A stretch of DNA of 64,000 bases. It comes from a virus. Of the stretch, positions 568 through 52,919 are shown in pieces; within the stretch, counting starts at the first letter, position 1, and each line of letters begins with the position of its first letter. The stretch is from the IMG/VR virus record IMGVR_UViG_3300034008_000032, one strand, 5' to 3'. The translations under genes and the position numbers were made by a program. The notes beneath the pieces were generated by a model that saw nothing but the letters and a program-made list of their open reading frames with translations, was not told the DNA's origin and made no database searches.

Positions 568-603
568 GTACCAATAATGGCATGCACGGATGGGTGTGGT
601 CAA
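568..603 (-). promoter_or_regulatory. promoter/operator element (minus strand)
   Basis: TTGACC-acacccatccgtgca-TGC-CATTAT-TGGTAC; same layout as the other copies and close to the 52635 copy. Confidence 0.75.
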
Positions 604-638: not shown

Positions 639-674
639 TTGCAGTCGCTGACCAACACATGCCAGAATAGGTAC
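639..674 (+). promoter_or_regulatory. leaderless promoter/operator element
   Basis: TTGCAG-N15-TGC-CAGAAT-AGGTAC, then ATG at 675. Confidence 0.8.
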
Positions 675-1211
675 ATGGACACCACGACCGGCGCACAGAC
701 GCCCACCCAGAAGATCACCGACGCGCAGATGCGTGCCCTGCACGCCATGGTGCAGAAGAACGACCCCGGCCACAACGGCTGGGTCGAGACCCCCAACAGG
801 GGTGTGCTGAACCGGCTGGTAAAGGCAGGCCTCTTGCGCGAGCGCGCCTTCCATGAGCGAGGCCCGTTGTACCGGGTGACTGACGCCGGCCGGGCGGCGC
901 ACGACGCGGTGTACACCGCGGACCGGCTGGCCGCCGAGGCGCAGGCGCGGTCGCGGGAGGCCAAGGCCGCCCGCGACGCAGCGCAGGCGCGGCGCGACGA
1001 CATGGACACCGCAGCGGAACTGCGCACCGAGGACATGGCGGCGGTGCGGGACATGCTGGGTGACGCAGCCCCCTGGTGGACGAAGGGCGGGGCCAAGCCG
1101 CACGACGACTACAGCGGCATCAGCGGCGGCGATTCGGTCGGCCGTATCACCGCCACCGAACTGCGGCGCTACCTCGAGGCTGCGCTGCGGAACGCCGGGG
1201 TGCAGGCATGA
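675..1211 (+). CDS. hypothetical protein, possible N-terminal winged helix
   Basis: Start placed at ATG 675 by the promoter element; ITDAQMRALHAM...VLNRLVKAGLL resembles a wHTH. Confidence 0.7.
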   Translation: MDTTTGAQTPTQKITDAQMRALHAMVQKNDPGHNGWVETPNRGVLNRLVKAGLLRERAFHERGPLYRVTDAGRAAHDAVYTADRLAAEAQARSREAKAARDAAQARRDDMDTAAELRTEDMAAVRDMLGDAAPWWTKGGAKPHDDYSGISGGDSVGRITATELRRYLEAALRNAGVQA

Positions 1212-1387
1212 ACCGGGACTGGACCATGAACACCGGCGAGTGCTGGTGCTATCGCACCTGCCGGGCGTGCAGCCACAGCGGCACCTGGCATGTGCACCCC
1301 GGCGAGCGTTGCCCCGTTCACCCTGACGCGCCGGGCGACTGGTCCGCGGCCGAGCGCGCCGCAGCGTTGTTGGCGGTGAAGGCGTGA
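1208..1387 (+). CDS. small Cys/His-rich hypothetical protein
   Basis: ATGA overlap; CWC..CRAC..H.H...CPVH. Confidence 0.6.
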   Translation: MNRDWTMNTGECWCYRTCRACSHSGTWHVHPGERCPVHPDAPGDWSAAERAAALLAVKA

Positions 1388-1608
1388 GCGCCCGCACCCT
1401 GACGTACCCGGAGCAGCAGGCGTACTGGCTGCTGCGGGCGGCCGGCCCGCAGGCTGCGTCTGAGGTAGCCACCCGCATGGGGTGGCCGATGGGTCCCACC
1501 CTGCGCATCCTGCTGGGGCTGCGCATAGCCGGGCTGGTGCAGGTGGCTGTGCTGCCCACCGCATCCCTGTGGTGGCTGACCCCGCCAGTCCCCGACGAGG
1601 AGGTGTGA
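1384..1608 (+). CDS. winged helix-turn-helix protein
   Basis: ASEVATRMGWPMGPTLRILLGLRIAGLV pattern; GTGA overlaps at both ends. Confidence 0.6.
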   Translation: MSARTLTYPEQQAYWLLRAAGPQAASEVATRMGWPMGPTLRILLGLRIAGLVQVAVLPTASLWWLTPPVPDEEV

Positions 1609-2897: not shown

Positions 2898-2933
2898 TTG
2901 ACACATGCCAAGATAGGCAGATAGGGTGTTCTT
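2898..2933 (+). promoter_or_regulatory. leaderless promoter with operator dyad between -35 and -10
   Basis: TTGACA-caTGCCaagataGGCAga-TAGGGT-gttctt-ATG(2934). Confidence 0.8.
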
Positions 2934-3284
2934 ATGACCACACCAATGACCGAGACCCGCATGGCGGTCAGTCTCGCCCACAGCATCGAGCGGGACCACA
3001 ACCCCCGCGCCTACTGGAAGGGCGCACTGCCCTCTGGTGACGCCCGCAGCCTCCTGGTGGACGTAGCAGACGCCACCGGCGCCAACGGCACCCGCACCTT
3101 CACCGTCACCGTGCACGAGGTGGACCCCTCCGAGGGCAACGACACCGAAGTGCAGCGCCTGGCCGACCTGCTGCTCGAGGGGTTGGAGTCCGCGCTGCCG
3201 GACGTCACAGACCCCATAACTGACCCAGAGATGGTGGCGCGGCACGTCGCCCAGTACATGGTGCTGCGGGGGGTGCACGTATGA
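2934..3284 (+). CDS. hypothetical protein (leaderless)
   Basis: ORF track; ATG 36 nt after TTGACA. Confidence 0.75.
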   Translation: MTTPMTETRMAVSLAHSIERDHNPRAYWKGALPSGDARSLLVDVADATGANGTRTFTVTVHEVDPSEGNDTEVQRLADLLLEGLESALPDVTDPITDPEMVARHVAQYMVLRGVHV

Positions 3285-7845: not shown

Positions 7846-8063
7846 CCAGGCCCCGCGACGAGCGGCGCCTGCACTCGGTGGTGCTGGTGCTGGCTGTAGG
7901 CCACGTGCTGCTGGCGTCCCTCGCGTTCATAGTGGACCGAGACCGCTACGTGTGGCCGGTGCTGCGCGAGGTGTACCCGTGGGTGTTCGTGGCTGCGTAC
8001 GCCTGGTCGGCACGCGCCAGCAGCAAGGGGGTTGTGGACCCACCTACTCGTGTGCCACAATAG
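7842..8063 (+). CDS. small membrane protein
   Basis: Two hydrophobic segments; GTGA overlap. Confidence 0.55.
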   Translation: MTRPRDERRLHSVVLVLAVGHVLLASLAFIVDRDRYVWPVLREVYPWVFVAAYAWSARASSKGVVDPPTRVPQ

Positions 8064-8067
8064 GTAC
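8032..8067 (+). promoter_or_regulatory. leaderless promoter/operator element
   Basis: TTGTGG-N15-TGC-CACAAT-AGGTAC-ATG(8068). Confidence 0.8.
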
Positions 8068-8481
8068 ATGAACGCATACACCGAGCAGGTCACCATCGGC
8101 ACCCCGCTGCGCGCTCGCACCGAAGAGTTCTACACCGGCATCAAGCGCGGCGACATTGTCTGGGTCATCGCGCACCGCGACGGCGACGGTCTACCGGACC
8201 GGGTCGAGGTCTGCGGCGACAACGACCAGGCCAGCCTGTGCACCAGCCTGGCCGACTTCGAAGAGGTTGCCCGTGACACCCTGACGCACCGCCAGTGGCA
8301 GGCAGGCTCCCGGGTCATGGCGTCGTTGGCCAAGTCGTACCTGGAGCGCGCGTACGCGGCAGCCAACCACCAGTACCAGCCGTCCGACACCGAAGCTCTG
8401 GCATGGCTGCACAAGGCGGCGGACCTGAGGCTGCTGTCCCATCGCCTACACGTGCAGGGCGGCGATGCTGGCCGCTGGTGA
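8068..8481 (+). CDS. hypothetical protein (leaderless, moron-like)
   Basis: Has its own promoter and a downstream terminator. Confidence 0.75.
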   Translation: MNAYTEQVTIGTPLRARTEEFYTGIKRGDIVWVIAHRDGDGLPDRVEVCGDNDQASLCTSLADFEEVARDTLTHRQWQAGSRVMASLAKSYLERAYAAANHQYQPSDTEALAWLHKAADLRLLSHRLHVQGGDAGRW

Positions 8482-34540: not shown

Positions 34541-34750
34541 ATGGTTGTGACTAAGGCCAACAGCGGTGGGTCGCTCGGCGCGCGTCCGCAGTCAGAGACG
34601 GACGCCACCATCGGTGCCCTGACCGGGCAGACCGGCGAGCGCGGCGGGAAGCCGAAGCCCGGCGGCTCCAAGGACGGCAGGCTGGCCGGCAACGAGGGCG
34701 GTAAGGGCAAGACGCTGAAGACGCCCGGTGCCAAGAAGGGCAAGAAGTAG
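34541..34750 (+). CDS. small Gly/Lys-rich basic protein
   Basis: CAGGAGG SD; ends KTLKTPGAKKGKK. Confidence 0.65.
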   Translation: MVVTKANSGGSLGARPQSETDATIGALTGQTGERGGKPKPGGSKDGRLAGNEGGKGKTLKTPGAKKGKK

Positions 34751-35019: not shown

Positions 35020-35055
35020 TTGCGTGACCGGCTGGCGGCATGCCACAATAGACAC
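35020..35055 (+). promoter_or_regulatory. leaderless promoter/operator element
   Basis: TTGCGT-N15-TGC-CACAAT-AGACAC-ATG(35056). Confidence 0.8.
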
Positions 35056-35517
35056 ATGACCACCGCTACCGCCCCCGCCGAAGTTACCGCCCGCTTCGTC
35101 AAGCCCCGGCTCTGCAGCCGCTGCCGCGGCGAGGGGCTGGTGTCCTCTCGGGTGGTGTACGCCGGCGGGCCTGGCGGCTGCTTCAAGTGCGACGGCTGGG
35201 GCTGGGTCGAGGGCGACCGGGCCACCATCGAAGCAGCGAAGGCCCGCACCGCAGCGATGACCGGCATGATCCGCGACAGCATCTCAGCCCTGGAGGCGGC
35301 CGGTCTGACCCCCCGCTACTCCACCGACCTGTGCTACGGCATCGACCACCTGGCCACTAACGCCCCCGCCCGGTACGAGTCGGCGCTGCAGTCATACCTG
35401 GCCGGTCACCCCGGCCTGGCCCGTGCGCTGTGGGCGTACACCGCCGAAGCCGGCTTCGTGCACTACGGCACCCGCAACCTGACTGCGGCAGAGGCCCTGG
35501 CCCTGCTGACCGACTGA
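35056..35517 (+). CDS. DnaJ-type zinc-finger protein (leaderless)
   Basis: CSRCRGEG...CFKCDGWG. Confidence 0.7.
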   Translation: MTTATAPAEVTARFVKPRLCSRCRGEGLVSSRVVYAGGPGGCFKCDGWGWVEGDRATIEAAKARTAAMTGMIRDSISALEAAGLTPRYSTDLCYGIDHLATNAPARYESALQSYLAGHPGLARALWAYTAEAGFVHYGTRNLTAAEALALLTD

Positions 35518-35531
35518 GAGAGGCGCACGCC

Positions 35532-35702
35532 ATGGAAGAGACTTGGCTAGGACAGATTCTGCGGGACGGGCAGTGGGTGGACTACGCCCGTGGCACCGAG
35601 GACGCGGCGCGGACCTGGCAGGCGGGCAGCCCTACGACCCGCCGGGTGGTGGACTGGATCGACAAAGATCGGGTGCTGGTGCATCCGTCTAACCCACGTT
35701 GA
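35532..35702 (+). CDS. hypothetical protein
   Basis: GAGAGG SD. Confidence 0.6.
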   Translation: MEETWLGQILRDGQWVDYARGTEDAARTWQAGSPTTRRVVDWIDKDRVLVHPSNPR

Positions 35703-35734
35703 CCATGCCACATGCGGCATGCCATAATTGGCGT
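35699..35734 (+). promoter_or_regulatory. leaderless promoter/operator of the XRE gene
   Basis: TTGACC-atgccacatgcggca-TGC-CATAAT-TGGCGT-ATG(35735). Confidence 0.8.
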
Positions 35735-35980
35735 ATGTCTACTTCAACCATCACCAATCTGGCGGATCTGGTACGCACCAGACGCCAAGCGAAGGGTCTG
35801 TCCATCCGTGAACTCGGGCAGCAGACCGGCACCTCCATGTCGTCCATGAATCGTCTGGAGTTGCAGAACATCGTGCCCCTGGCGCCGTCCATCTTCCGCA
35901 TCGCGGACGTGCTGGACATCGACCTGGAGACGCTGAAGACGCTCGTGTTGCAGTGCGCCAACGCCGGCAAGACCGGCTGA
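35735..35980 (+). CDS. XRE-family HTH transcriptional regulator
   Basis: LVRTRRQAKGLSIRELGQQTGTSMSSMNRLE...RIADVLDI. Confidence 0.88.
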   Translation: MSTSTITNLADLVRTRRQAKGLSIRELGQQTGTSMSSMNRLELQNIVPLAPSIFRIADVLDIDLETLKTLVLQCANAGKTG

Positions 35981-35997
35981 GGAAACTGTCACAGCGC

Positions 35998-36014
35998 CCT
36001 GCCAAAATTGACAC
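35998..36014 (+). promoter_or_regulatory. operator/-10 element without a TTG -35
   Basis: TGC-CAAAAT-TGACAC, then a short leader with AAGGAAGGGGG SD. Confidence 0.55.
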
Positions 36015-36045: not shown

Positions 36046-36462
36046 ATGACCACCTCACCCACAGATCACACCGAGACCGCCGACCAGGCTGTGCGTCAGT
36101 CCGCCTGGGATAAGGCGTTGTGGCTGCACGATCAGATGACGGACGCGCTGGCCAGGGCCGCGGGGGGCCCGGGCGGCGCCGGCTACCGTGACCCGCACGC
36201 AGCCGGTGACGCCGGCGAGTTCCGCACCCGGCTGTACGCCATCATCACCGAGCACGACTTTTGGGACACCCGGGTGGACCCGCTGGGGCTGTCCTACTTC
36301 GAGCGCCGGGCCGCAGCATGGCTGCTGCCTGACGTGGACCGTGCCCACTGCACCCACGACAGCGCCACCTGCGAGGTCCACTGGGGCCGTCGTTTCGTGG
36401 GCGCCGGCGGCGGACCGTGCAGAGACGGCCGGACCTCGGCCACCGAGGCTGGTGTCCTGTGA
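36046..36462 (+). CDS. hypothetical protein
   Basis: SD present; ORF track. Confidence 0.7.
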   Translation: MTTSPTDHTETADQAVRQSAWDKALWLHDQMTDALARAAGGPGGAGYRDPHAAGDAGEFRTRLYAIITEHDFWDTRVDPLGLSYFERRAAAWLLPDVDRAHCTHDSATCEVHWGRRFVGAGGGPCRDGRTSATEAGVL

Positions 36463-37454
36463 CCGCCGCGAAAGGTACAGACGTAGCCACCCTGTTGGAG
36501 CCGGTGTCCCCCGATGACCCGCGCTGGGCTGCGCTGCGCGCCGAGTTTCCTCCGGACGAGTTGGAGCACAAGCCGCAGCCGGTGGGTAAGGCGAAGCAGG
36601 GCGAGCAGCGCAACATGCGCGGCAAGTGCGAGCCTGGACGCCGTGACCCCGACAACTGGCCCATCAGCGCAGACGAGTACTTCTGCGGCGGCTACCACGC
36701 ACGGTCAGTGCACCTGGCGTACGTGGGCCATGCGGGGCTGAAAATGCGCCTCAACGATGTGGTGGGACCGGCGCTGTGGGAGTGGGAGCCGCTGGCGCTG
36801 ACCCCGACGGGGCTGCCGCTGTTCAGTGACGGCGGCATGTGGATCAGGCTCACCATCATGGGCTACTCGAAGATCGGCTTCGGTGACGCGCAGGGCAAGA
36901 ACGGCCCGGACGCTATCAAGGAAATCATCGGGGACGCGCTGCGGAATGCTGCGCAGCAGTTCGGCATCGCCACCTACCTGTGGGGCAAGTCGGATCGGGC
37001 GCTACTGATGCGCGAGTACGAGCCGCCGCCGGCTGGGGCTGTGGACCGCCGCGACGAGCCGACGCACCCCGAGGGTGCCAGCCACCCCGGCGAGGGTGCG
37101 TATGGACCTGGGGACGCGGTGCGGACTGGGGTTGTGCAGTATCAGGAGTCGGACCCGCGGCAGCCTGCAGCGCAGCCCGCCGAGCAGTCGGCGCAGCAGC
37201 AGGCAAGCGATGCGCTGGCGCAGGCGCGTGCCCGGCACCGGGCAGCCATCGCCAAGGCGCACCCGGACTGGGACAACACCAGGAAGGGCGACGAGATTGC
37301 CCGCATGCTGGCTGAGCGGAACACCGCCGGCGGCTGGCCGGTGGACATGAACACCGCCACAGTGGAGGACTGGAACTACCTGACGCAGTTCTGGAACGAC
37401 AGCGCGGATGCTGCCGCGCTGTCACAGCCACAACCCGAGGCGGTGCAGGGATGA
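36459..37454 (+). CDS. Rad52/Sak-like single-strand annealing protein
   Basis: YVGHAGLKMRLNDV...MWIRLTI...KEIIGDALRNAAQQFGIATYLW. Confidence 0.85.
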   Translation: MTAAKGTDVATLLEPVSPDDPRWAALRAEFPPDELEHKPQPVGKAKQGEQRNMRGKCEPGRRDPDNWPISADEYFCGGYHARSVHLAYVGHAGLKMRLNDVVGPALWEWEPLALTPTGLPLFSDGGMWIRLTIMGYSKIGFGDAQGKNGPDAIKEIIGDALRNAAQQFGIATYLWGKSDRALLMREYEPPPAGAVDRRDEPTHPEGASHPGEGAYGPGDAVRTGVVQYQESDPRQPAAQPAEQSAQQQASDALAQARARHRAAIAKAHPDWDNTRKGDEIARMLAERNTAGGWPVDMNTATVEDWNYLTQFWNDSADAAALSQPQPEAVQG

Positions 37455-38092
37455 CCGTCGAGGACATTGTGGACGCCGAGGTCATTGGGGACACGGCACC
37501 GGAGACGCGGAAGGACCGCGCCCGCCGGCTGCTACTGGAGGCCGCGATTTTGGACCGGCTGACCGCAGCCAACCGGGAGGCGCGGCGGGCCATCGCTGAC
37601 GAGTACGAGGCCAGTGACGCTGACGTGGCCTCGTATGAGGGTGTGCCGCTGGGCCGGGTGCGCATGGACAACGGCCGGGTCACGGTCAGTGTCACAGACC
37701 AGGCGTACGCGCTGCGGTGGGTGCAGGCCAACGCCCCCCATCAGGTGCAGGAGGATGTGGTGGTCACGGTCACCCCGGACGGGTTGGCGTGGCTGTCTGA
37801 GCATCACCCGGAGTGGCTGGTGGAGCAGGTGCTGTCCTGCGAGGTCCACCCGGCGTTCCTGACCGCGCTGGTGGCGCGGGTCAAGAAGGCGAAGGGTCAG
37901 TGGGTGACGAAGGACGGGCTGCCGGACGTTTGGACGGACCCGGACACCGGCGAGGAGTCCACGGGGCTGCCGCCGTTCATCGGCTACCGGCAGGGGGACC
38001 CCATCCTGAACGTCACCTTGTCCGATGAGGCGCCCGGCGTGGCGCTGCGGCTTCTGGCTGGACGGCTGCCCGAGTTGGAGGGCCTCTCGTGA
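37451..38092 (+). CDS. hypothetical protein
   Basis: ATGA overlap. Confidence 0.75.
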   Translation: MTVEDIVDAEVIGDTAPETRKDRARRLLLEAAILDRLTAANREARRAIADEYEASDADVASYEGVPLGRVRMDNGRVTVSVTDQAYALRWVQANAPHQVQEDVVVTVTPDGLAWLSEHHPEWLVEQVLSCEVHPAFLTALVARVKKAKGQWVTKDGLPDVWTDPDTGEESTGLPPFIGYRQGDPILNVTLSDEAPGVALRLLAGRLPELEGLS

Positions 38093-38289
38093 GAATGGGA
38101 ATCACCTTCTACCTGGTTGGGGGGCGCGTTGTTCACTGGGACATGCCGACCGCCCAAGGTGAGGCCATCCTCAACCTCATGCAGGCGGGGGCGCCGTGGG
38201 TGGCTATAGACGACCCAGACGATGGCACCACGCGCGCGCTGGCGCAGGCGCACATCACTTCGTTTGATGTGGTCCGTAACCGTGGCTAG
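38089..38289 (+). CDS. hypothetical protein
   Basis: GTGA overlap. Confidence 0.6.
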   Translation: MRMGITFYLVGGRVVHWDMPTAQGEAILNLMQAGAPWVAIDDPDDGTTRALAQAHITSFDVVRNRG

Positions 38290-38698
38290 CACCGACGCTG
38301 CGCTGCGTTACATACGCGGCCACTACGGGGTGCCGGCCCGCCGCGGGCAGCGCATCCTGTACACCGACACCGCCGGCCAGGGCATGCTGGGCACCATCAC
38401 CGGTGGGTCCGGCGCGCACCTGATTGTGCAGTTCGACAACCCAGCAGCGCAACGCCGGCAGCGGCTGCACCCCACCTGGCAGGTGCAGTACCTGGAACGC
38501 ATGTGGCGGTGCACAGCCTGTGGCAAGTGGTCGCATGCTGTCCGCCGGCCAAAATACCACCGGGTCACAGTGGTGGACGAGCCCGCCGAGGGCACTGCAC
38601 TCGAGTACCTGGCGGCCAGTCTGGACCCGGACGACCAGGACGCCTGGGTGGTGCCCTGCGGACCGTTTGTGCGCTACGAGGCGCGGCGGGCGGAGTGA
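38282..38698 (+). CDS. hypothetical protein
   Basis: YIRGHYGVPARRG...HPTW motif recalled from other phages. Confidence 0.65.
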   Translation: MASTDAALRYIRGHYGVPARRGQRILYTDTAGQGMLGTITGGSGAHLIVQFDNPAAQRRQRLHPTWQVQYLERMWRCTACGKWSHAVRRPKYHRVTVVDEPAEGTALEYLAASLDPDDQDAWVVPCGPFVRYEARRAE

Positions 38699-39075
38699 GC
38701 GACGTGGATCGGGTCGCAGCCGCGCTGGCTGCGGCCACCCTGACGTACACCGACGAGGTTGACCTGCATGCTGACATGGCGCGGGTCATGGCTGCTGCTG
38801 GCATCCGTTTCCGGCGCGAGGTCACCCTGACCTACCCGGCGCCGGCCACCGCCCGCGGACGCATCGACTTCCTGACCGACAACGGCGCAGGCATCGAGGT
38901 CAAGGTGGCCGGCAGCCTGGCTGCTGCCACCCGCCAACTGCTGCGATACGCGCACAGCCCGGACGTGCGTGCGCTGCTGCTGGTGACCACCGTTGCCGCC
39001 CACCGCGGCATCCCACAGGTGCTGGCCGGCGTGCCAGTCACCCTCCACTCACTGACAGGACAGGGGCTGCGATGA
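38695..39075 (+). CDS. PD-(D/E)XK restriction-endonuclease-like protein
   Basis: REV...GRIDFL....GIEVK...QLLRYA. Confidence 0.75.
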   Translation: MSDVDRVAAALAAATLTYTDEVDLHADMARVMAAAGIRFRREVTLTYPAPATARGRIDFLTDNGAGIEVKVAGSLAAATRQLLRYAHSPDVRALLLVTTVAAHRGIPQVLAGVPVTLHSLTGQGLR

Positions 39076-40865
39076 CCACGCGCACCTACGGCAAGTACCG
39101 CTACATCTCGGAGGAGGAACTACCGGAGCATCTGCGGACCACCCGCCGCCGCGGGCACGCAGGCTACTGGGCGCTGCAGGCAGAGCCGGCTGTGTCCATG
39201 CGCGCCAAGCGCATGTTCGGCCGCGCCACCAGTGACCGCAAGGGGTATCTGCACTTCCGGCACACCGTGGAGACCGCCCGGGACCTGCAGTGGTTCATCG
39301 AGCGATACCCGCTGCAGCCCATGGATGACCAGTCCGCGGACATGCTGGCCATGGCCGCGAAGCAGCACCGCGAGGCCGAGGAGTTGGTGACCTCCATCCT
39401 GGCCGGGGACTACCAGCCGCACCTGAACGCTGACCCCACCGAGCGGGCCCGGGACTACCAGTTGGCGGCCATGCAACTGCTGCGCGCCGTGGGTGGGCTG
39501 CTACTGACAGACGAGGTGGGGCTGGGTAAAACGTTCACCGCAGCCCTCAACTTCCTGCACGACGACGGGCTGCCGGCGCTGGTGGTGGCACCCACCCACC
39601 TGGCGTCACACCGCGGCGGCCGGTGGGTGGAGGAACTGGACAGCCACTTCCCGTTCCTGCGCTACCACGTGATCCGCAAGGGCACCCCGTACACCAGTGC
39701 GGACCCGCGAAAGCATCGGCTGGAATTCGAGCAGGCGGACGTGCTCATCACCACCTACAACAAACTGGACGGGTGGGCTGACGCGCTGACGGGCCGGCTG
39801 AAGTACATCGTCTTCGACGAGGTACAAGACCTGCGGCGCGGCGCCGACTCCGCGAAGGGCGTCGCTGCCGCGCGCATCGCTGACAGTGTGCCGTACCGGC
39901 TGGGGCTGACCGCGACTCCTGTGTACAACTACGCCGGCGAGGCGTGGAACATTCTGGACGTCATCAACCCCGGCACCCTGGGCAGCATTGAGGAATTCAC
40001 CCGCGAGTGGGGGGCGCTGGCGTGGGGCAGCCACATCAAGGTGGCGAACCCGGCAGCGCTCGGCTCGTACCTGCGGGAGCAGGGCGTCATGCTGGGACGC
40101 ACCCGTAAGGACGTGGGCCGGGAGTTGCCGCAAACCATCAAGGTGACCGAGACCGTGGACAGTGACCCGGCTGCGCTGGACGCGGTGGCCGGTGACGCAG
40201 CAGCCATGGCCAGGCTGGTGCTGGACAGCAAGGCCGAGAAGTTCGAGCGGTTCAGGTCCGCCGGCGAACTGGACATGATGATGCGGCAGGCCACCGGCAT
40301 CGGCAAGGCGCCGTACGTGGCCGAGTTTGTGCGCATGCTGTGCGAGTCAGAGGGGCGGGTGGTGCTGTGGGGCTGGCATCGAGCCGTCTACGACATCTGG
40401 CTGCAGCGGCTGGCTGACCTGCGGCCGGTGCTGTACACCGGCAGCGAATCGCCTACACAGAAGGCTGCTGCGGTGGCGAAATTCACCAGCCCCCTCGAGG
40501 ATTGGGACGACCCAGACGCGGCCCGAGTGCTCATCATGTCGCTGCGGTCCGGGGCTGGGGTGGACGGGCTGCAGAAGCACGCACGGGTGGGTGTGTTCGG
40601 GGAGTTGGACTGGTCGCCGCAGGTCCACGAGCAGTGCATTGGCCGGCTGCGCCGTGACGGCATGGGCACAGACCCAGCACTGGCCTACTTCCTGGTGTCC
40701 GAGGAAGGGTCTGATCCGTCCATCGCGGAGGTGCTGCAGGTGAAGCGGCAGCAGGGCGAGCAGTTGGTGTCACCTGACGGGCGGCTGTTCGACAACGCCA
40801 CCTCGGATGTGAACCGCACCCGCCTGTTGGCTGAGGCTGCGCTGCGTAGGGCTGGTGGCCGATGA
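39072..40865 (+). CDS. SNF2-family helicase
   Basis: LLTDEVGLGKT, VFDEVQ, GLTATP, SLRSGAGVDGLQ, EQCIGRLRRDG. Confidence 0.92.
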   Translation: MTTRTYGKYRYISEEELPEHLRTTRRRGHAGYWALQAEPAVSMRAKRMFGRATSDRKGYLHFRHTVETARDLQWFIERYPLQPMDDQSADMLAMAAKQHREAEELVTSILAGDYQPHLNADPTERARDYQLAAMQLLRAVGGLLLTDEVGLGKTFTAALNFLHDDGLPALVVAPTHLASHRGGRWVEELDSHFPFLRYHVIRKGTPYTSADPRKHRLEFEQADVLITTYNKLDGWADALTGRLKYIVFDEVQDLRRGADSAKGVAAARIADSVPYRLGLTATPVYNYAGEAWNILDVINPGTLGSIEEFTREWGALAWGSHIKVANPAALGSYLREQGVMLGRTRKDVGRELPQTIKVTETVDSDPAALDAVAGDAAAMARLVLDSKAEKFERFRSAGELDMMMRQATGIGKAPYVAEFVRMLCESEGRVVLWGWHRAVYDIWLQRLADLRPVLYTGSESPTQKAAAVAKFTSPLEDWDDPDAARVLIMSLRSGAGVDGLQKHARVGVFGELDWSPQVHEQCIGRLRRDGMGTDPALAYFLVSEEGSDPSIAEVLQVKRQQGEQLVSPDGRLFDNATSDVNRTRLLAEAALRRAGGR

Positions 40866-42571: not shown

Positions 42572-42921
42572 GGGCTGCGGAGGCGTGGGCGCTGCAGGCG
42601 GCTGCCATGGACGAGGACACCGAACTGCTGCCGAAGGTGCTGGACCTGGCCAAGACGCTGCGGTGGACGCTGCGCTTCCACGACTACGTACCGCTGCGGA
42701 ACGGGCGCGGATTCCTAGACCTGCTCATGCTGCACCCCGGCCGGGGGCTGGTGCTGGCCGCTGAGTTGAAGTCGCACCGGGGCCGGGTGACCCCCGAGCA
42801 GAACCTGTGGCTGGACGGCTGGCGCGCGGTCGCTGCTACCGCACCCAACGTGCTGGTGCACGTGTGGCGCCCCCTGGACTTGTTGGACGGAACCATCGCC
42901 AAGGTACTTGCGCGCACCTGA
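42568..42921 (+). CDS. VRR-NUC-like nuclease / resolvase
   Basis: GFLDLLML...AELKSHRGRVTPEQNLWL. Confidence 0.8.
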   Translation: MRAAEAWALQAAAMDEDTELLPKVLDLAKTLRWTLRFHDYVPLRNGRGFLDLLMLHPGRGLVLAAELKSHRGRVTPEQNLWLDGWRAVAATAPNVLVHVWRPLDLLDGTIAKVLART

Positions 42922-42943
42922 CCTGACATGCCAGAATAGACAC
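42908..42943 (+). promoter_or_regulatory. leaderless promoter/operator element
   Basis: TTGCGC-N15-TGC-CAGAAT-AGACAC-ATG(42944). Confidence 0.8.
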
Positions 42944-43210
42944 ATGACCACCACACAGTACCCCGTCCGCCGCATTGCCGGCACCGACTGCAGCGCCCGC
43001 CTGAGCCGGCGCAGCAACGACGGCAGCATCCGTGACTACGCAATCCTTGACGCCACAGGCGCCGTTATTGGCCTCGTGTCTTGGCACACCGCCCGGGTGG
43101 GCCGGTCCGCCGGCTACCACGAAGGCCGTGGCTGCTACAGCCACGACGTGCGGTGCTTCCGTAACCTGGCCGAGGCCGCCCACTACTTCGCAGGCCAGGT
43201 GACCGCGTGA
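42944..43210 (+). CDS. hypothetical protein (leaderless)
   Basis: Start defined by the promoter element. Confidence 0.7.
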   Translation: MTTTQYPVRRIAGTDCSARLSRRSNDGSIRDYAILDATGAVIGLVSWHTARVGRSAGYHEGRGCYSHDVRCFRNLAEAAHYFAGQVTA

Positions 43211-43961: not shown

Positions 43962-43997
43962 TTGTGTCACCCCTGACAGGTATGCCACTATAGGTAC
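43962..43997 (+). promoter_or_regulatory. leaderless promoter/operator element
   Basis: TTGTGT-N15-TGC-CACTAT-AGGTAC-ATG(43998). Confidence 0.8.
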
Positions 43998-44813
43998 ATG
44001 ACCACCGCAGACACCCAAACCGACCCCACCGTCTACGTGGACCCGTGCCCTGGCATGAAGGGCACCGACACCATCGTCCGCACCTGCGGCAACTGCGGCG
44101 GTGACGGCGTCGTGCACTTCGGCCGCGTCGTCCTCGACGGCTACGTGCACGGAGAGCGCACCCAAGGACGCGTCTGCTTCGACTGCGACGGCAGCGGCAA
44201 GAACACCGTCAAGGTGTCCAGCCTGCGGGCCACCGCACACCGGCACGTCAAGCAGGCTGTGGCAGCCCGGGAGGCAGAAGTGCTGGCCGACATCAGCCGC
44301 GGCGCGTGGCGGCACAGCAGCCCCGATCTGGCGGCTGCGCTGGACCGGCTGAAGGTCATCGAGGACAGCAGCGGCTTCTACTGGTCGCTGTACCACCACG
44401 TCGGCAAGCACGGTGGGCTGACCGACAAGCAGGGCGAGGCGATGCTGCAGACTGTGGCTGACCACGACGCACGGGAGGCTGCGAAGGCTGCCGAACTGGC
44501 CGCGCAGTCCCCGGTGGTGACCGGCCGGCAGACCGTGACCGGCGAAGTGCTGGCCCGCAAGACGGTGGACGGCTACGCATACGGCAGCCTCGAGGTGAAA
44601 CTGCTGGTGCGCGACGACCGCGGCTTCAAGGTGTACGGCACCTGCCCCAAGTCTCTGCTGGGGGACTGGGTGGACGGCGAACTGGTGGGCAACGTCCAGA
44701 AGGGCGATCATGTCACCTTCGTGGCCACCCTCGAGGCCAGCCGTGACGACGAGGCGTTCGGCTTCTTCCGCCGGCCGACCGCGGCCAACATTGTGGCGGG
44801 GGCGCTGCTGTGA
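43998..44813 (+). CDS. DnaJ-type Zn finger plus OB-fold-like protein (leaderless)
   Basis: CGNCGGDG...CFDCDGSG; C-terminal VTGEVLARK...KVYGT...VTFVAT. Confidence 0.7.
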   Translation: MTTADTQTDPTVYVDPCPGMKGTDTIVRTCGNCGGDGVVHFGRVVLDGYVHGERTQGRVCFDCDGSGKNTVKVSSLRATAHRHVKQAVAAREAEVLADISRGAWRHSSPDLAAALDRLKVIEDSSGFYWSLYHHVGKHGGLTDKQGEAMLQTVADHDAREAAKAAELAAQSPVVTGRQTVTGEVLARKTVDGYAYGSLEVKLLVRDDRGFKVYGTCPKSLLGDWVDGELVGNVQKGDHVTFVATLEASRDDEAFGFFRRPTAANIVAGALL

Positions 44814-45169: not shown

Positions 45170-45411
45170 TGGACCGCTGCACCTACTGTGGCCGGCGCCG
45201 GCAGTGCTGGGCTATCCAACGGAAGGGCGGAGGCAACTACCGCCGCGCCGGCCGGGGGTATTGGGGACGCATCTGCGGTGAGTGTGTGCTGTCCCTGCTG
45301 GACGGCAACGAGCACCGCGACGGGTCACAGACCGTGGACCGCTACAACCTGGGCAGTCTGCGCCGCATCGCCCGCCTACTTGTGCCAACAGAGGAAGGTG
45401 TGCCAAACTAG
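45169..45411 (+). CDS. zinc-finger-like hypothetical protein
   Basis: CTYC...ICGEC; TGATG coupling. Confidence 0.65.
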   Translation: MDRCTYCGRRRQCWAIQRKGGGNYRRAGRGYWGRICGECVLSLLDGNEHRDGSQTVDRYNLGSLRRIARLLVPTEEGVPN

Positions 45412-45415
45412 GCAC
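45380..45415 (+). promoter_or_regulatory. leaderless promoter/operator element
   Basis: TTGTGC-N15-TGC-CAAACT-AGGCAC-ATG(45416); perfect dyad GTGCC-N6-GGCAC. Confidence 0.78.
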
Positions 45416-45787
45416 ATGAACACCGCAGCCCCGAGTCAAGAGCCGCGCCGGATGGAGATGGCGCGCATGACGCCCAGCCAGAAGCGGATGACTGTGCAGT
45501 CCCTGATGGGGCGCCGGTCCCTGGTCTACGTGAAGGTGGCCAAGCCAACACCGCTGACGGTGGCGTTCGACGTGGAGGTAATCGGGGTGGGTGTGTCCCT
45601 GCTGGGTGACACCGACAAGGCTGTGGACCTGACCTGCCGCATGTACGGCGAGGACAACCGCTGGGCAACGGTCCCGCTGGCGTCCGTGGTGGGCATGACC
45701 CCGCTGCCGTGGCCCGTCACTGACCCCCGCCACCCGGACTACGTGGCCCCGAAAACTGTCTACACCGCACTACCCCCCCGCCGCTGA
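45416..45787 (+). CDS. hypothetical protein (leaderless)
   Basis: Start defined by the promoter element. Confidence 0.7.
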   Translation: MNTAAPSQEPRRMEMARMTPSQKRMTVQSLMGRRSLVYVKVAKPTPLTVAFDVEVIGVGVSLLGDTDKAVDLTCRMYGEDNRWATVPLASVVGMTPLPWPVTDPRHPDYVAPKTVYTALPPRR

Positions 45788-45830: not shown

Positions 45831-46208
45831 ATGCCTCAGTCCATTTACGTGCACCTGCTGGACGGCACCTCGTGCACCGGCCGGCAGCACGACATCGGAG
45901 ACCCAGACATCCTCATCTGCGATGCGCATGACCGCCGAACCATGACCCGGGAGGCGCGGGCGCTGAGGCAGCAGCAACAGACCCCGGCCACACTGGAGGC
46001 TGCGGTGGGTGACACCCTGACAGGGCACCACCTGAGCCTGCCGCCCGGCAGTATTGTGCTGTCCAACGGACCCACAGGCACCGCCTACCAGCGGCACCAC
46101 CGCGACGGCATGTTCCACGGCACCAACGGGCGCATGTTCACGCAGGCAGACCTCATCCGCTACCAGGGTGCTGTGGTGGTCTACGTGGCACCCAAGGACG
46201 AGCGGTGA
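45831..46208 (+). CDS. hypothetical protein
   Basis: AAGAAGG SD. Confidence 0.7.
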   Translation: MPQSIYVHLLDGTSCTGRQHDIGDPDILICDAHDRRTMTREARALRQQQQTPATLEAAVGDTLTGHHLSLPPGSIVLSNGPTGTAYQRHHRDGMFHGTNGRMFTQADLIRYQGAVVVYVAPKDER

Positions 46209-46408
46209 AGCGCTGGCTGGCAAGACTGCTGGAGCGGCGCGCAACGTCTCTCCTGCCGCAGAGCCTGCGCGTCCGGCTGGCCGCCATTGGCGACGTGGAC
46301 GACTGCTACGAGTGCGACCGGCTGACCGTGTGGGACGGCGAGGTCTGCACCGGCTGCGGGCGCACCTGGGGCTACGACGCGGACTGGCCGTACGAGGTCA
46401 AGCCGTGA
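46205..46408 (+). CDS. small zinc-ribbon protein
   Basis: CYEC...CTGCG. Confidence 0.65.
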   Translation: MKRWLARLLERRATSLLPQSLRVRLAAIGDVDDCYECDRLTVWDGEVCTGCGRTWGYDADWPYEVKP

Positions 46409-47481
46409 GCGGCTTCGTGGACCCGCTGGCCCCCGAGGCGCTGTTCGAGTCGGAGGCGGCGCCGGCGGTCACCCTGGCCGACCGGTTCGGGGTGCCGCCG
46501 TTCAGCGTGTTGGACCGGCGGGCTGGGCTGTGGCAGGAGCGGAAGCGGGCGTGGCTGTCCCTGGGCATCAAGTCCGAGTTGGGGCGGGACACGAACCTGC
46601 TGAAGAGGTCCGGCTTCACCGATGACTACTTCAACGGCGCCGGCCAGTTCAAGCACAAGCGTGGCAGTGGCCCGCACCCGGGCGGCGGCGGTGGCGGTGC
46701 GTGGCTGGGTCAGAAGGCCGGCGGCGGCACCGCCTCCTATGACCCGAAGTGGGGCGGCGGGGACGGCGAGGCCGGGGATGTGGAGACGGTAGGCACGTCC
46801 ATCTTTGACCCGGTGCTGGCCGAGTTGGCGGTCCGCTGGTTCAGCAAGGTGGGCTGGCAGGTGCTGGACCCGTTCGCCGGCGGCAGTGTCCGTGGCATTG
46901 TGTCCGGGGTGCTGGGCCGGGACTACCTGGGTGTGGACCTGCGCGCCGATCAGGTGAACGCCAACTGGCAGCAGATCGGTCTGGTGCCGGACGGGCTACC
47001 CAAGCCGCGGTGGCTGGCTGGTGACAGCCTGCACGTGCTGCCAGCGCTGACCCACTTTGCTGCCGACCTGATCCTGACCTGCCCCCCGTACGCCGACCTG
47101 GAGGTGTACTCGGACGACCCGCGGGACCTGTCCACCATGGACTACGACATGTTCCTCGTGGTGCAGCAGGCCATCCTGGCGGAGGCCGTTGAGCACCTGC
47201 GACCAAACCGGTTCGTGGTGTGGGTGACCAGCGATGTGCGGGACAAGGCAAAGGTGGGCAGTCCGTACCGGGCGCTGGTGGCTGACACCATCCATGCCGC
47301 GCAGGACTGCGGGCTCGAGTTGTACAACGACCTGGTGATTCTGGACCCGGTGGGGTCTGGTGCTGTGCGCGCCGGCCGTCACTTCTCCAGCGCCCGCAAG
47401 GTCATCCGTATGCACCAGCATGCGCTGGTGTTCGTGAAGGGCGACCCGAAGGTCGCCACAGACGAGATGGGGACGGTGTGA
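46405..47481 (+). CDS. DNA methyltransferase (N4-C/N6-A type), copy 1
   Basis: VLDPFAGGSVRG (SAM binding) precedes TCPPY (catalytic). Confidence 0.88.
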   Translation: MSGFVDPLAPEALFESEAAPAVTLADRFGVPPFSVLDRRAGLWQERKRAWLSLGIKSELGRDTNLLKRSGFTDDYFNGAGQFKHKRGSGPHPGGGGGGAWLGQKAGGGTASYDPKWGGGDGEAGDVETVGTSIFDPVLAELAVRWFSKVGWQVLDPFAGGSVRGIVSGVLGRDYLGVDLRADQVNANWQQIGLVPDGLPKPRWLAGDSLHVLPALTHFAADLILTCPPYADLEVYSDDPRDLSTMDYDMFLVVQQAILAEAVEHLRPNRFVVWVTSDVRDKAKVGSPYRALVADTIHAAQDCGLELYNDLVILDPVGSGAVRAGRHFSSARKVIRMHQHALVFVKGDPKVATDEMGTV

Positions 47482-47711
47482 CCTGGGACCAAGGCGCCCC
47501 CGAGCCGCCACCCGAGGTGGTCTGCGTCACTGACTACAGCACACCAGATTGGGACCCGTGCGACCCAGCCAGTCCCCGCTGGGGGCGCACAACGGACGGG
47601 CACTGGAAGGGCTACAAGAACGGCTACAAGACCTACGTGGGGTGGGACGAACTGACCCGGCGCTGGGGGCCACTGACCGATACTGGACTACGACTGAAGG
47701 GCGCAGAATGA
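47478..47711 (+). CDS. hypothetical protein
   Basis: GTGA/ATGA overlaps; WDELTRRWGPLT. Confidence 0.65.
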   Translation: MTWDQGAPEPPPEVVCVTDYSTPDWDPCDPASPRWGRTTDGHWKGYKNGYKTYVGWDELTRRWGPLTDTGLRLKGAE

Positions 47712-49574: not shown

Positions 49575-49982
49575 GTGCCAGTGAAAACTATACCAACATC
49601 GGCCACGCACCGTCCAGTGGAACGCCAGCCTGTCTCACACGCGCTGCGCTGGGCGACATTGTGCCGCTACAACTTCTCGTGCCGCTACTGTGGACTACCC
49701 GCCGGTGTGGTGGTGCTGCAGATCGAGCACGTCATCCCCGTGGCCCACGGCGGCACCAGTGACCCGTGGAACCTCGTTCCTGCCTGCGCCGAATGCAACC
49801 GAGGCAAGGGCGTCACGATGCCGCCGGCAGACCTGCTGCGGGCGGTCTGGGCTGAGTACATGGCGCACCCGGCACCGTACGTCCGGCAGTGCCTGGTCTG
49901 CCTCGAGCCGACCTTGTCTGACCCCGCCTGCCCGCCGCTGTGCGAGGACTGCTGCGGACGCATCATGGCGGTGCAGGCATGA
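49575..49982 (+). CDS. HNH endonuclease
   Basis: CRYCG...IEHVIPVAHGG...NLVPACAECNRGKG. Confidence 0.88.
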   Translation: MPVKTIPTSATHRPVERQPVSHALRWATLCRYNFSCRYCGLPAGVVVLQIEHVIPVAHGGTSDPWNLVPACAECNRGKGVTMPPADLLRAVWAEYMAHPAPYVRQCLVCLEPTLSDPACPPLCEDCCGRIMAVQA

Positions 49983-50857: not shown

Positions 50858-51102
50858 TGACAGATACCGCGTTTGTCCTGGTGACGCTGCTGTTTTGCTG
50901 GCATGTTGCGGCATGGATTGTGCTGGTGTGCTGCGAGAGCGTCCGCCTGCTGCCTTTGCCGCCGCGGTGGCCGCTGCTGTACACGGTGGTGGTGTGGCTG
51001 CTGGCCCCTGCGGCTGCGCTGGCTCTGCTGCCGGGGTTTGTGCTGCTGCGGCTGCTGCTGCCCACCTGGCGTGACGTTGACGCCTACGAGGTGGAGTCGT
51101 GA
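50857..51102 (+). CDS. membrane protein
   Basis: Two hydrophobic helices. Confidence 0.6.
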   Translation: MTDTAFVLVTLLFCWHVAAWIVLVCCESVRLLPLPPRWPLLYTVVVWLLAPAAALALLPGFVLLRLLLPTWRDVDAYEVES

Positions 51103-52634: not shown

Positions 52635-52670
52635 TTGACCACACCCATGCTGGCATGCCACAATTGGTAC
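52635..52670 (+). promoter_or_regulatory. leaderless promoter/operator element
   Basis: TTGACC-N15-TGC-CACAAT-TGGTAC-ATG(52671). Confidence 0.8.
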
Positions 52671-52919
52671 ATGACCAAGCCCACCGAGAACGCCACCCAC
52701 CCGCTGCTGACGTGGACCGCCGCGGACCTGCGGCTGTGCATCGGACTGCAGGTGCCGGACGGGGTGACCGCAGTGGAGTGGGACACCACCGACAGCAAGG
52801 GCTGCTTCGTGCTGTCGGACGGGCGGGTGTTCGTCCGCAACCCTGACTTCCCGCGGTGGTCCGCGGATCGCTGGGTGGACGCCCGCGATGACGTGTCCAT
52901 GACCGAGGCCACAGCGTGA
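52671..52919 (+). CDS. hypothetical protein (leaderless)
   Basis: Start defined by the promoter element. Confidence 0.7.
   Translation: MTKPTENATHPLLTWTAADLRLCIGLQVPDGVTAVEWDTTDSKGCFVLSDGRVFVRNPDFPRWSADRWVDARDDVSMTEATA

What the first reader, a model, noticed from the sequence alone, without database searches (positions are those of the whole stretch)
35699..36014. XRE gene flanked by two operator sites: candidate master regulator
The only clear XRE-HTH gene is itself leaderless from one of the elements, which has an extra ATGCCA half-site in its spacer. A second dyad (36000) lies right after its stop, ahead of the Rad52/SNF2 operon. At 2898 the same dyad sits between -35 and a different -10 (TAGGGT). 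That shows the dyad can be separated from the promoter hexamers, as expected of a protein-binding site. XRE dimers binding 14-18 bp dyads is established; that this protein binds this dyad is inference.
Basis: partly seen in the sequence, partly recalled or inferred. Interest (0 to 1): 0.65.

Follow-up and report, generated by a model that had tools for sequence, protein, structure and literature searches.

The report
Cro-like phage regulator with promoter-embedded dyads
A small Cro-type DNA-binding gene in an uncultivated actinobacterial phage sits behind a promoter carrying two back-to-back palindromes; it probably represses itself, but its proposed control of all eleven look-alike phage promoters is untested and much of the "operator" is the promoter itself.

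Summary
Bases 35735-35980 encode an 81-aa XRE/Cro-type helix-turn-helix protein. It starts 6 nt after the -10 of TTGACC-18-CATAAT (TG at -15/-14), so the mRNA is predicted to be leaderless. A 14-mer, TGCCAnnMTwGryr, occurs 11 times against 0.22 expected. One copy lies in the XRE promoter, with a second dyad abutting it in the spacer. Another copy lies 20 nt after the XRE stop.

Most of the "dyad" is ordinary promoter anatomy: extended -10 TG, A-11, T-7, G-5, C-1/A+1. The left arm is invariant, the right arm is never perfect, and the bare dyad TGCC-N6-GGCA is not enriched (7 vs 5.0).

Three things favour a real operator:
- All 11 copies have C-13 and C-12, which is not canonical.
- Two dyads sit in promoter spacers where they cannot act as the -10.
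- The only relative found (IMG/VR fragment, XRE 44% identical, same position and geometry) has a perfect palindrome, TGTCA-TAAT-TGACA. Both arms and the recognition helix differ from the window.

The site after the stop is not conserved in that relative. A small winged-helix protein (1384-1608) is a rival binder.

Verdict: a Cro-like autoregulator is plausible; a "master regulator" is unproven. This is a new member of a known kind.

The parts
35699..35704 (+). -35 hexamer TTGACC of the XRE promoter; it overlaps the stop codon (35700-35702) of the upstream 56-aa ORF
35705..35720 (+). Spacer dyad O2: ATGCC-ACATGC-GGCAT with perfect 5-bp arms, core TGCCACATGCGGCA at 35706-35719. It spans -29..-16 and has no -10-like centre
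35720..35733 (+). Promoter-embedded dyad O1: TGCCATAATTGGCG at -15..-2. It contains the extended -10 TG (35720-35721) and the -10 hexamer CATAAT (35723-35728)
35735..35980 (+). XRE/Cro-type HTH gene, 81 aa with five helices. The ATG is at the predicted +1, giving a leaderless mRNA
   Evidence: The homologue in G002 starts at the same MST, with an in-frame TGA two codons upstream of its ATG
36000..36013 (+). Family member TGCCAAAATTGACA after the XRE stop. It has no -35. It may be an internal extended -10 promoter and/or an operator ahead of the leadered gene at 36046 (SD at 36030-38). It is not conserved in G002
36046..40865 (+). Downstream early operon: 138-aa ORF, single-strand annealing protein (36417-37454), unknown ORFs, and SNF2 helicase (39072-40865)
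2898..2936 (+). Variant promoter TTGACA-18-TAGGGT-6-ATG, with the 14-mer TGCCAAGATAGGCA (2906-2919) in its spacer at -28..-15
569..582 (-). Family copy TGCCATTATTGGTA on the minus strand, leadered and divergent from the 639 promoter
639..677 (+). Canonical leaderless promoter copy (TTGCAG...TGCCAGAATAGGTAcATG) driving 675-1211
8032..8070 (+). Canonical copy heading the terminase-capsid-tail-lysis operon (8068-34439)
35020..35058 (+). Canonical copy driving 35056-35702, the genes just upstream of XRE. This unit is absent from G002
42908..42946 (+). Canonical copy
43962..44000 (+). Canonical copy
45380..45418 (+). Canonical copy with the best dyad among them (GTGCC-N6-GGCAC). A further TGCCA overlaps its -35
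52635..52673 (+). Canonical copy after the DnaB helicase gene. TGGCA|TGCCA forms a 10-bp palindrome at -20..-11
1384..1608 (+). Rival DNA-binding candidate: a 74-aa protein that looks like a small winged helix
   Evidence: TrmB, E = 1e-3, below cutoff; Atlas features 0.94-0.95 to MarR/IclR/ArsR-like clusters

Best explanation
The window is an uncultivated actinobacterial siphovirus. It has 11 copies of one promoter element. Nine have the form TTGnnn - 15 nt - TGC-CAnnAT - wGryAc, and in eight of these an ATG follows directly at the predicted +1. The element reads as a host sigma-A-type extended -10 promoter that makes leaderless mRNAs.

The XRE gene (35735-35980) is expressed from the copy closest to consensus. 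It lies immediately after the lysis cassette, ahead of the recombination and replication genes. This is the position Cro occupies in temperate relatives.

The most likely mechanism is as follows. The 81-aa five-helix protein dimerises and binds 14-16 bp dyads of the type TGCC-N6-GGCA, the same 4+6+4 layout as phage 434 operators. It binds first at its own promoter, where two dyads abut and cover -29..-2, so it represses itself. It binds more weakly at the other copies, where the dyad is imperfect and is overlaid on the -10/discriminator. 2898 and 45380 are the best of these. The result would be a turning-down of early transcription.

Shown here: the gene, its fold, the promoter geometry, the copy-number statistics, and the conservation of position with a changed palindrome in one relative.

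Inferred: dimerisation, binding, repression, the ranking of sites, and any genome-wide role.
For: - The XRE domain scores above Pfam cutoffs and hits PHROG transcriptional regulator/repressor families.
- The AF2 model (pLDDT 83) has five helices. It superposes on 434 Cro (TMt 0.84, rmsd 1.4), P22 c2 (TMt 0.87), SinR-N, C.BclI and ClgR.
- The 14-mer family has 11 copies against 0.22 expected.
- A generic pattern TTG-N22-ANNNT-N6-RTG recovers only these sites (9 vs 1.28 expected).
- C-13 and C-12 are invariant in 11/11 copies. Actinobacterial sigma-A promoters use TAnnnT (PMC3890552). Canonical TGNTANNNT is depleted in this genome (4 vs 24.8). The CC is therefore not explained by RNA polymerase preference.
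- Two dyads occupy spacer positions where they cannot be the -10: 35706-35719 at -29..-16 and 2906-2919 at -28..-15.
- The relative G002 is syntenic and 65-75% identical in nucleotide sequence over capsid to holin. Its XRE homologue (44% identity) sits in the same place with identical geometry. Its 14-mer is the perfect palindrome TGTCATAATTGACA: C-13->T is matched by G-4->A, and the recognition helix differs (TSMSSMNR vs VHVSTVIR).
- No terminator separates XRE from the downstream operon.
- In Arthrobacter phage Pitbull (SSAP 55% identical), an HTH gene occupies the same first-early-gene position, next to a divergent HTH gene and an integrase.
Against: - Most conserved positions are promoter determinants: TG at -15/-14, A-11, T-7, G-5, C-1/A+1.
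- The left arm is invariant, but the right arm matches TGGCA at only 3-4 of 5 positions in every copy. At -3, T is nearly as common as C.
- The bare dyad is not enriched (7 vs 5.0).
- The compensatory change rests on one relative and one site. Using the window's own right-arm base frequencies, I estimate about a 5% chance of a perfect palindrome arising without selection.
- Abutting 14-bp sites are 14 bp centre to centre. To my knowledge this is unusual for cooperative Cro/CI-type dimers.
- The 36000 site is missing in G002.
- The same element drives the structural operon at 8032. Uniform repression would be self-defeating for a lytic programme.
- XRE has no homologue above 50% identity. Operator-protein covariation cannot be tested further.
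Confidence: 0.45

Rival explanations
1. Promoter only. The 14-mer is an optimised, lineage-specific extended -10 / discriminator / start-site module for leaderless mRNAs, read by host RNA polymerase. The partial two-fold symmetry is a by-product. XRE regulates something else (a different site, host genes, or only the perfect ATGCC-N6-GGCAT palindrome in its own spacer), or it has no link to the family.
For: - The conserved positions map onto known sigma-70-family contacts.
- The left arm is invariant and the right arm is degenerate.
- The bare dyad is not enriched.
- Every promoter-geometry match in the window carries the motif, so there is no motif-free promoter to contrast with.
- C-12 is also kept in G002 (TGT-CATAAT), as a polymerase-level feature would be.
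- 36000 and 569(-) work equally well as plain extended -10 promoters with leaders.
Against: - It does not explain the invariant C-13, a free position in TGn, which changes to T in G002 together with its symmetric partner.
- It does not explain the -10-less dyad at 35706.
- It does not explain the 14-mer sitting in the spacer of a canonical TTGACA/TAGGGT promoter at 2898.
- The right arm is kept in the three copies that are not followed directly by an ATG.
Confidence: 0.3
2. The dyad is a real operator, but another phage protein binds it. The best candidate is the 74-aa winged-helix-like product of 1384-1608. Less likely candidates are the 178-aa product of 675-1211 or an unrecognised factor. 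XRE would then be only one of the regulated genes.
For: - 1384-1605 gives a weak TrmB winged-helix hit (E = 1e-3).
- Its Atlas feature neighbours are MarR/IclR/ArsR-type small wHTH proteins (0.94-0.95).
- It lies in the operon fed by the divergent promoter pair 603(-)/639, which has a switch-like layout.
- Most early ORFs have no family assignment.
Against: - The Pfam hit is below cutoff, and Atlas scores of 0.9 or more occur by chance in 4-10% of shuffled proteins.
- No operator features are specific to its own promoter.
- XRE is the only protein whose own promoter carries an additional dyad.
- XRE is the only protein for which a relative shows a changed palindrome together with a changed recognition helix.
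Confidence: 0.12
3. XRE is not a transcriptional governor of the phage. It would instead be an antitoxin-like or host-directed HTH protein, for example paired with the conserved 138-aa downstream ORF.
For: - The closest phage-database hits to the homologue P0013 are Xre-family antitoxins (38% identity, E about 0.01).
- The downstream ORF 36046-36462 is conserved next to it in G002 (37.5% identity) and has no family assignment.
Against: - The hits are marginal.
- The gene pair lies at the head of a recombination/replication operon.
- No toxin family was detected.
- The palindromes over its own promoter fit autoregulation in either case.
Confidence: 0.05

Closest known systems
Phage 434 / P22 Cro and repressor DNA-binding domains with their 14-bp operators
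   Same: Both have a five-helix XRE fold (434 Cro TMt 0.84, rmsd 1.4; P22 c2 TMt 0.87). Both are small, single-domain proteins. The dyad layout of 4-5 bp arms around a 4-6 bp centre within 14 bp overlaps the -10 of early promoters (the 434 operator layout is from my own knowledge). XRE is among the first genes of the early operon.
   Different: There is no divergent CI-type repressor gene or PRM next to it, and no integrase in the window. The sites abut at 14 bp centre to centre rather than being spaced by 6-7 bp. Sequence identity is only 17-24%. The operator is fused to an extended -10 and the +1 of leaderless mRNAs. The copies are spread over the genome, including the late operon.
Restriction-modification controller (C) proteins, e.g. 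C.BclI, C.AhdI, C.Esp1396I
   Same: Similar size and fold (C.BclI is rank 4; C.AhdI and C.Esp1396I are also listed). From my own knowledge, they autoregulate through tandem palindromic boxes at their own promoter, and some C genes are transcribed as leaderless mRNAs.
   Different: No restriction endonuclease gene lies next to XRE. The two methyltransferase genes are 10 kb away (46054-48748). C-boxes are not dispersed over a genome.
Mycobacteriophage L5 (Cluster A) repressor gp71 with stoperators; Streptomyces phage phiC31 repressor with conserved inverted repeats
   Same: In these actinophages a single phage repressor recognises many dispersed short sites at or near promoters (own knowledge).
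   Different: L5 sites are asymmetric 13-mers that also act within transcription units, and both phages are temperate with an integrase. Here there is no evidence of lysogeny in the window, the sites are only at promoters, and XRE shares no detectable sequence similarity with any cultured-phage protein.
ClgR, the actinobacterial XRE-family regulator
   Same: It is the best Foldseek match (3f51; E = 1.8e-3, prob 1.00). It is a small actinobacterial XRE protein that binds a palindrome (own knowledge).
   Different: Identity is 17-19%. ClgR is a cellular activator of clp/lon genes, and its operator is unrelated.

Membership tests
XRE / Cro-C1-type HTH proteins (Pfam HTH_3, HTH_31) | Domain score above the curated gathering threshold | tested here: met
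   HTH_31 scores 34.0 bits against a cutoff of 27. HTH_3 scores 26.8 bits against a cutoff of 23.
XRE / Cro-C1-type HTH proteins (Pfam HTH_3, HTH_31) | Five-helix fold with helix 2-turn-helix 3 superposable on 434 Cro / P22 c2 | tested here: met
   The AF2 model has pLDDT 83.4 and helices at 9-20, 24-31, 35-42, 50-60 and 64-79. Foldseek gives probability 1.00 for 434 Cro, P22 c2, SinR and ClgR, with rmsd 1.3-1.4 over about 62 residues.
XRE / Cro-C1-type HTH proteins (Pfam HTH_3, HTH_31) | Dimer binding to a two-fold symmetric operator | not testable with these tools
   Needs EMSA, footprinting or DAP-seq.
Sigma-70/sigma-A extended -10 promoter giving a leaderless mRNA | TG at -15/-14, with A-11 and T-7 of the -10 hexamer | tested here: met
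   Present in 11 of 11 copies.
Sigma-70/sigma-A extended -10 promoter giving a leaderless mRNA | T at -12 (TAnnnT consensus of actinobacterial sigma-A promoters, PMC3890552) | tested here: not met
   C is at -12 in all 11 copies, and also in G002. Only the separate TAGGGT hexamer at 2922-2927 has T-12.
Sigma-70/sigma-A extended -10 promoter giving a leaderless mRNA | -35 TTGnnn at 17-18 nt, and a start codon 6 nt after the hexamer | tested here: met
   TTG-N21-CANNNT-N6-ATG occurs at 8 sites against 0.25 expected. 569(-) has the -35 but carries a leader. 36000 has neither a -35 nor a leaderless start.
Sigma-70/sigma-A extended -10 promoter giving a leaderless mRNA | Mapped transcription start at the A of the ATG | not testable with these tools
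   Needs 5'-RACE or dRNA-seq of infected cells. The host is unknown.
Lambda/434-type CI-Cro genetic switch | Divergently transcribed repressor gene sharing the operator region with the cro-like gene | tested here: not met
   All ORFs around 34.4-36.5 kb are on the + strand, and no second HTH gene is adjacent. The same holds in G002.
Dispersed single-repressor regulon of a temperate actinophage (L5 stoperator / phiC31 CIR type) | Integrase and lysogeny module, with a repressor conferring immunity | tested here: inconclusive
   Pfam found no integrase among 58 non-structural ORFs of the window. However, a contig of 91.6 kb is reported for this protein, so about 27 kb lies outside the window.
R-M controller (C) protein | Gene adjacent to, and controlling, a restriction endonuclease gene | tested here: not met
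   The neighbours are a 56-aa ORF, a 138-aa ORF and an SSAP. The HNH and methyltransferase genes lie 6-13 kb away.

The most novel reading that the evidence does not exclude
One 81-aa Cro-like protein would act as a genome-wide governor of an apparently lytic actinophage. Its operator would be built into the segment from the extended -10 TG to +1 of every phage promoter, including the single promoter of the 27-kb structural/lysis operon and its own. The non-canonical C-13/C-12, in a genome purged of canonical TAnnnT, would exist to create that operator. Operator arms and recognition helix would co-evolve between related phages (TGCCA/TGGCA versus TGTCA/TGACA), giving lineage-specific, immunity-like transcription control without a CI/integrase module.
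Probability: 0.2. Interest if true: 0.55.

Novelty: new member of a known kind. Interest (0 to 1): 0.35.

Why it matters
If XRE binds these dyads, this phage would offer a compact and tractable example of whole-genome transcription control. It would involve one small regulator and an operator fused to an extended -10 leaderless promoter. Such parts (strong actinobacterial leaderless promoters with a built-in repressor site) could be useful for expression systems in high-GC Gram-positive bacteria. It would also give a pair of diverged operator/recognition-helix variants for studying specificity. If XRE does not bind, the region is an ordinary small HTH gene behind a good promoter. The only notable point would then be the unusual, strictly conserved TGCCAnnAT -10 region of this phage lineage.

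Tried and rejected
- Near-identity DNA search against 50,697 phage records found no match.
- tblastn of XRE against the phage records found no match.
- A search for XRE relatives in IMG/VR by peptide patterns found none, so the window's own phage is not in that collection.
- The word-indexed search of 5.8 billion proteins returned only the protein itself.
- The exhaustive HMMER search of 1.84 billion representatives found no single-domain homologue above 47% identity. The top scores are multi-HTH repeat proteins.
- The SSAP gave no IMG/VR relatives. DnaB gave only a 26%-identity hit.
- SNF2 gave 19 loci at 52-57% identity. These carry neither the motif, nor any extended -10 leaderless promoters, nor an XRE homologue, so they were uninformative.
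Two viral pattern scans also gave chance hits, apart from G002 itself.
- The XRE alignment found nothing at E <= 1e-8 in 401 genomes of the order of a Plantibacter genome.
- The PDB sequence search found no hit.
- The idea that the HTH_36 protein 49940-50857 is a rival regulator was rejected. It is a replication initiator (phrog_270, E = 7.5e-29), with its own iteron array inside the gene.
- The idea that a phage sigma factor reads the elements was not supported. Pfam found no sigma domain, and all promoters share one type, so the host enzyme must start the programme.
- The idea that the 2898 variant arose by a simple 8-nt duplication was checked by eye and does not restore canonical geometry.

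Full report
**What the window is.** The window is 68% GC and almost all ORFs are on the + strand.
- The gene order is: small terminase (8554), large terminase (8950-10563), portal, capsid, a 1330-aa tape measure, tail genes, and lysis genes up to 34439.
- An early region follows with a single-strand annealing protein (36417-37454, phrog_3290), an SNF2 helicase (39072-40865), HNH genes, two N6/N4 methyltransferases, a replication initiator (49940-50857) and DnaB (51099-52631).
- The large terminase is only about 50% identical to those of Arthrobacter and Microbacterium phages.
- There is no near DNA match among deposited phages, and no whole genome is held.
- It is therefore an uncultivated actinobacterial siphovirus. 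The longest contig reported for the XRE protein is 91.6 kb, so about 27 kb lies outside the window.

**Checking the observation.**
- The ORF 35735-35980 encodes 81 aa and matches Pfam HTH_31 and HTH_3 above their curated cutoffs. It also matches PHROG regulator/repressor families.
- An AlphaFold2 model (pLDDT 83) has the five helices of the Cro/C1 fold. It superposes on 434 Cro, P22 c2, SinR-N, C.BclI and ClgR.
- Upstream lies TTGACC (35699-35704), an 18-nt spacer, and CATAAT (35723-35728) preceded by TG. Six nucleotides later comes the ATG. This is the only consensus promoter hit in 34.4-36.5 kb, and no terminator follows the gene.
- The spacer holds not just a half-site but a full second dyad, TGCCACATGCGGCA (35706-35719). 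With flanks it forms the perfect-armed ATGCC-N6-GGCAT.
- TGCCAAAATTGACA lies at 36000-36013, 20 nt after the stop. It is ahead of a Shine-Dalgarno sequence and the ATG at 36046.
- At 2898, TTGACA-18-TAGGGT-6-ATG carries TGCCAAGATAGGCA in its spacer.

**The repeated element.**
- The pattern TGCCANNMTWGRYR occurs 11 times against 0.22 expected.
- Aligned, nine copies read TTGnnn - 15 nt - TGCCAnnATwGryA. Eight are followed by c/tATG, usually ATGACCACC.
- A purely geometric pattern (TTG-N21-CANNNT-N6-ATG) finds the same eight sites and nothing else. Relaxing position -12 and the start codon adds only 2898.
- The geometry matches an extended -10 promoter with the start codon at +1. TG is at -15/-14, the hexamer CAnnAT is at -12..-7, and a 6-nt discriminator follows.
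- This fits actinobacterial sigma-A promoters (TAnnnT, weak -35 ttgnca, frequent TGn) and the abundance of leaderless mRNAs there (PMC3890552).
- One copy (8032) heads the whole 27-kb structural/lysis operon. The others head early units.

**How much of the 'dyad' is just promoter?** A good deal of it.
- T-15/G-14, A-11 and T-7 are standard RNA-polymerase contacts.
- From my own knowledge of E. coli work, G at -5 is the favoured discriminator base for sigma region 1.2, and C-1/A+1 is the usual start context.
- The left arm TGCCA is invariant in 11/11 copies. The right arm matches TGGCA at only 3-4 of 5 positions, and no copy is perfect.
- The bare dyad TGCC-N6-GGCA is not enriched in the window (7 vs 5.0; 21% of shuffles reach 7).
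- On these grounds alone the symmetry could be incidental.

**What speaks for a protein-binding site anyway.**
1. C-13 and C-12 are invariant, yet -13 is a free position in TGn and -12 is normally T. Canonical TGNTANNNT is strongly depleted in this genome (4 vs 24.8). TANNNT in coding sequence is also depleted (90 vs 230 under codon shuffling). This suggests the host enzyme does read TAnnnT, which makes the universal C-12 of the phage's own promoters a deliberate-looking departure.
2. Two family dyads sit at nearly the same spacer position, -29..-16 at the XRE promoter and -28..-15 at 2898. There they cannot act as the -10 that serves the start codon. The one at 35706 lacks an A/T-rich centre altogether.
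3. The right arm is retained in the three copies that are not followed directly by an ATG (569-, 2906, 36000).
4. TGNCA-type half-sites are over-represented in the 30 nt upstream of the elements (9 vs 1.3). This test was post hoc, and some hits overlap -35 hexamers.

**The one informative relative.**
- HMMER against 1.84 billion representatives found no single-domain homologue closer than 47% identity (P0013).
- A 74%-identity relative of P0013 lies on the IMG/VR contig UViG_3300025875_000093, a 23.7-kb fragment.
- That contig is a true relative of the window phage. It is 65-75% identical in nucleotide sequence from capsid to holin, in the same order, and the holin-region ORF is 81% identical in protein.
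- Its XRE homologue (44% identity) lies at the same place, right after the lysis cassette, ahead of homologues of 36046, the SSAP and 38222.
- The promoter geometry is identical: TTGACG - 15 nt - TGTCATAATTGACA - c - ATGTCTACT. An in-frame TGA lies two codons upstream of the ATG, which fixes the start codon.
- The 14-mer is a perfect 5+4+5 palindrome. Both arms differ from the window (TGCCA/TGGCG becomes TGTCA/TGACA), so C-13->T is matched by G-4->A.
- The predicted recognition helix also differs (TSMSSMNR vs VHVSTVIR).
- This is what an operator co-evolving with its protein would look like, but it is one site in one relative. A at -4 already occurs in 3 of 11 window copies. From the window's own right-arm frequencies I estimate about a 5% chance of a perfect palindrome without selection.
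- The element after the stop (36000) has no counterpart in the relative. The 35020 promoter unit is also absent there.

**Other candidate binders.**
- Among 58 non-structural ORFs scanned, XRE is the only HTH_3/HTH_31 protein.
- The HTH_36 protein 49940-50857 is a replication initiator (phrog_270), with an iteron array inside its own gene.
- The 74-aa product of 1384-1608 gives a sub-threshold TrmB hit, and its Atlas feature neighbours are MarR/IclR/ArsR-type small winged-helix proteins. It remains a possible alternative.
- No sigma factor and no integrase were detected in the window.

**Placement.**
- In Arthrobacter phage Pitbull (SSAP 55% identical), an HTH gene opens a similarly ordered early operon (excise, SSAP, HNH, methylase, initiator, DnaB). 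A divergent HTH gene and a tyrosine integrase lie next to it.
- The window's XRE occupies that Cro-like position but without the divergent partner.

**Conclusion.**
- Best reading (confidence about 0.45): XRE is a Cro-like repressor that binds TGCC-N6-GGCA-type dyads. It binds most strongly at the double site over its own promoter (negative autoregulation) and perhaps more weakly at other copies.
- 'Promoter only' (about 0.3) and 'another protein binds' (about 0.12) remain live alternatives.
- The 'master regulator' label is not established.
- This is a new member of a familiar kind of phage regulator. The unusual detail is an operator-like symmetry fused to a strictly conserved, non-canonical extended -10 of leaderless promoters.
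No look-alike was found in other windows of the scan.

Noticed in passing
window 50286-50428: An array of about five paired iteron-like repeats (GGGTGACA / TGTCACCC, including the perfect 18-bp palindromes GGTGACAC-CA-GTGTCACC) lies inside the replication-initiator gene 49940-50857. It is probably a lambda-like origin within the initiator gene. The first unit, TGCCAAATCTGACA, has the same 5+4+5 layout as the promoter 14-mer at 36000.
   Followed up: partly
whole window: The canonical -10 is depleted. TGNTANNNT occurs 4 times against 24.8 expected under dinucleotide shuffles. TANNNT in coding sequence occurs 90 times against 230 +/- 17 under codon shuffling. TGNCANNNT is not depleted (108 vs 118). 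This suggests selection against spurious host promoters. Codon-junction TA avoidance may contribute.
   Followed up: partly
window, 30 nt upstream of the 11 elements: Extra TGCCA/TGGCA half-sites (3 vs 0.7 expected, P = 0.036) and TGNCA-type half-sites (9 vs 1.3) occur in promoter spacers. Examples are TGGCA|TGCCA at 52651-52660 and GTGCCAA repeated 18 nt apart at 45382 and 45400. Positions and orientations vary, and the test was post hoc.
   Followed up: partly
window 675, 8068, 35056, 42944, 43998, 45416, 52671: Most leaderless genes begin ATGACCACC or ATGAACACC (Met-Thr-Thr or Met-Asn-Thr). This A/C-rich run after the start may matter for leaderless translation.
   Followed up: no
L263:9925-9960 (IMG/VR UViG_3300025875_000093): In the relative, a GC-rich inverted repeat (GAGACCC...GGGTCTC) lies between the lysine-rich last protein of the lysis region and the XRE promoter. 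It is terminator-like but has no T run. The window instead has two extra genes and an extra promoter copy (35020) at this place. This was seen by eye and not folded.
   Followed up: no
L004-L022 (IMG/VR loci with the SNF2 homologue): Nineteen phage contigs share the SNF2 helicase at 52-57% identity. None has the TGCCA element, extended -10 leaderless promoters, or an XRE homologue. The promoter system is therefore specific to a narrow lineage.
   Followed up: yes
window 34541-34750 and L263:~9700-9876: A small lysine/glycine-rich protein ending ...GGKGKTLK...KK closes the lysis region in both phages. Its 3' end in the window contains a chance-looking TGCCAAGAAGGGCA (34729) that is not conserved in the relative.
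   Followed up: no
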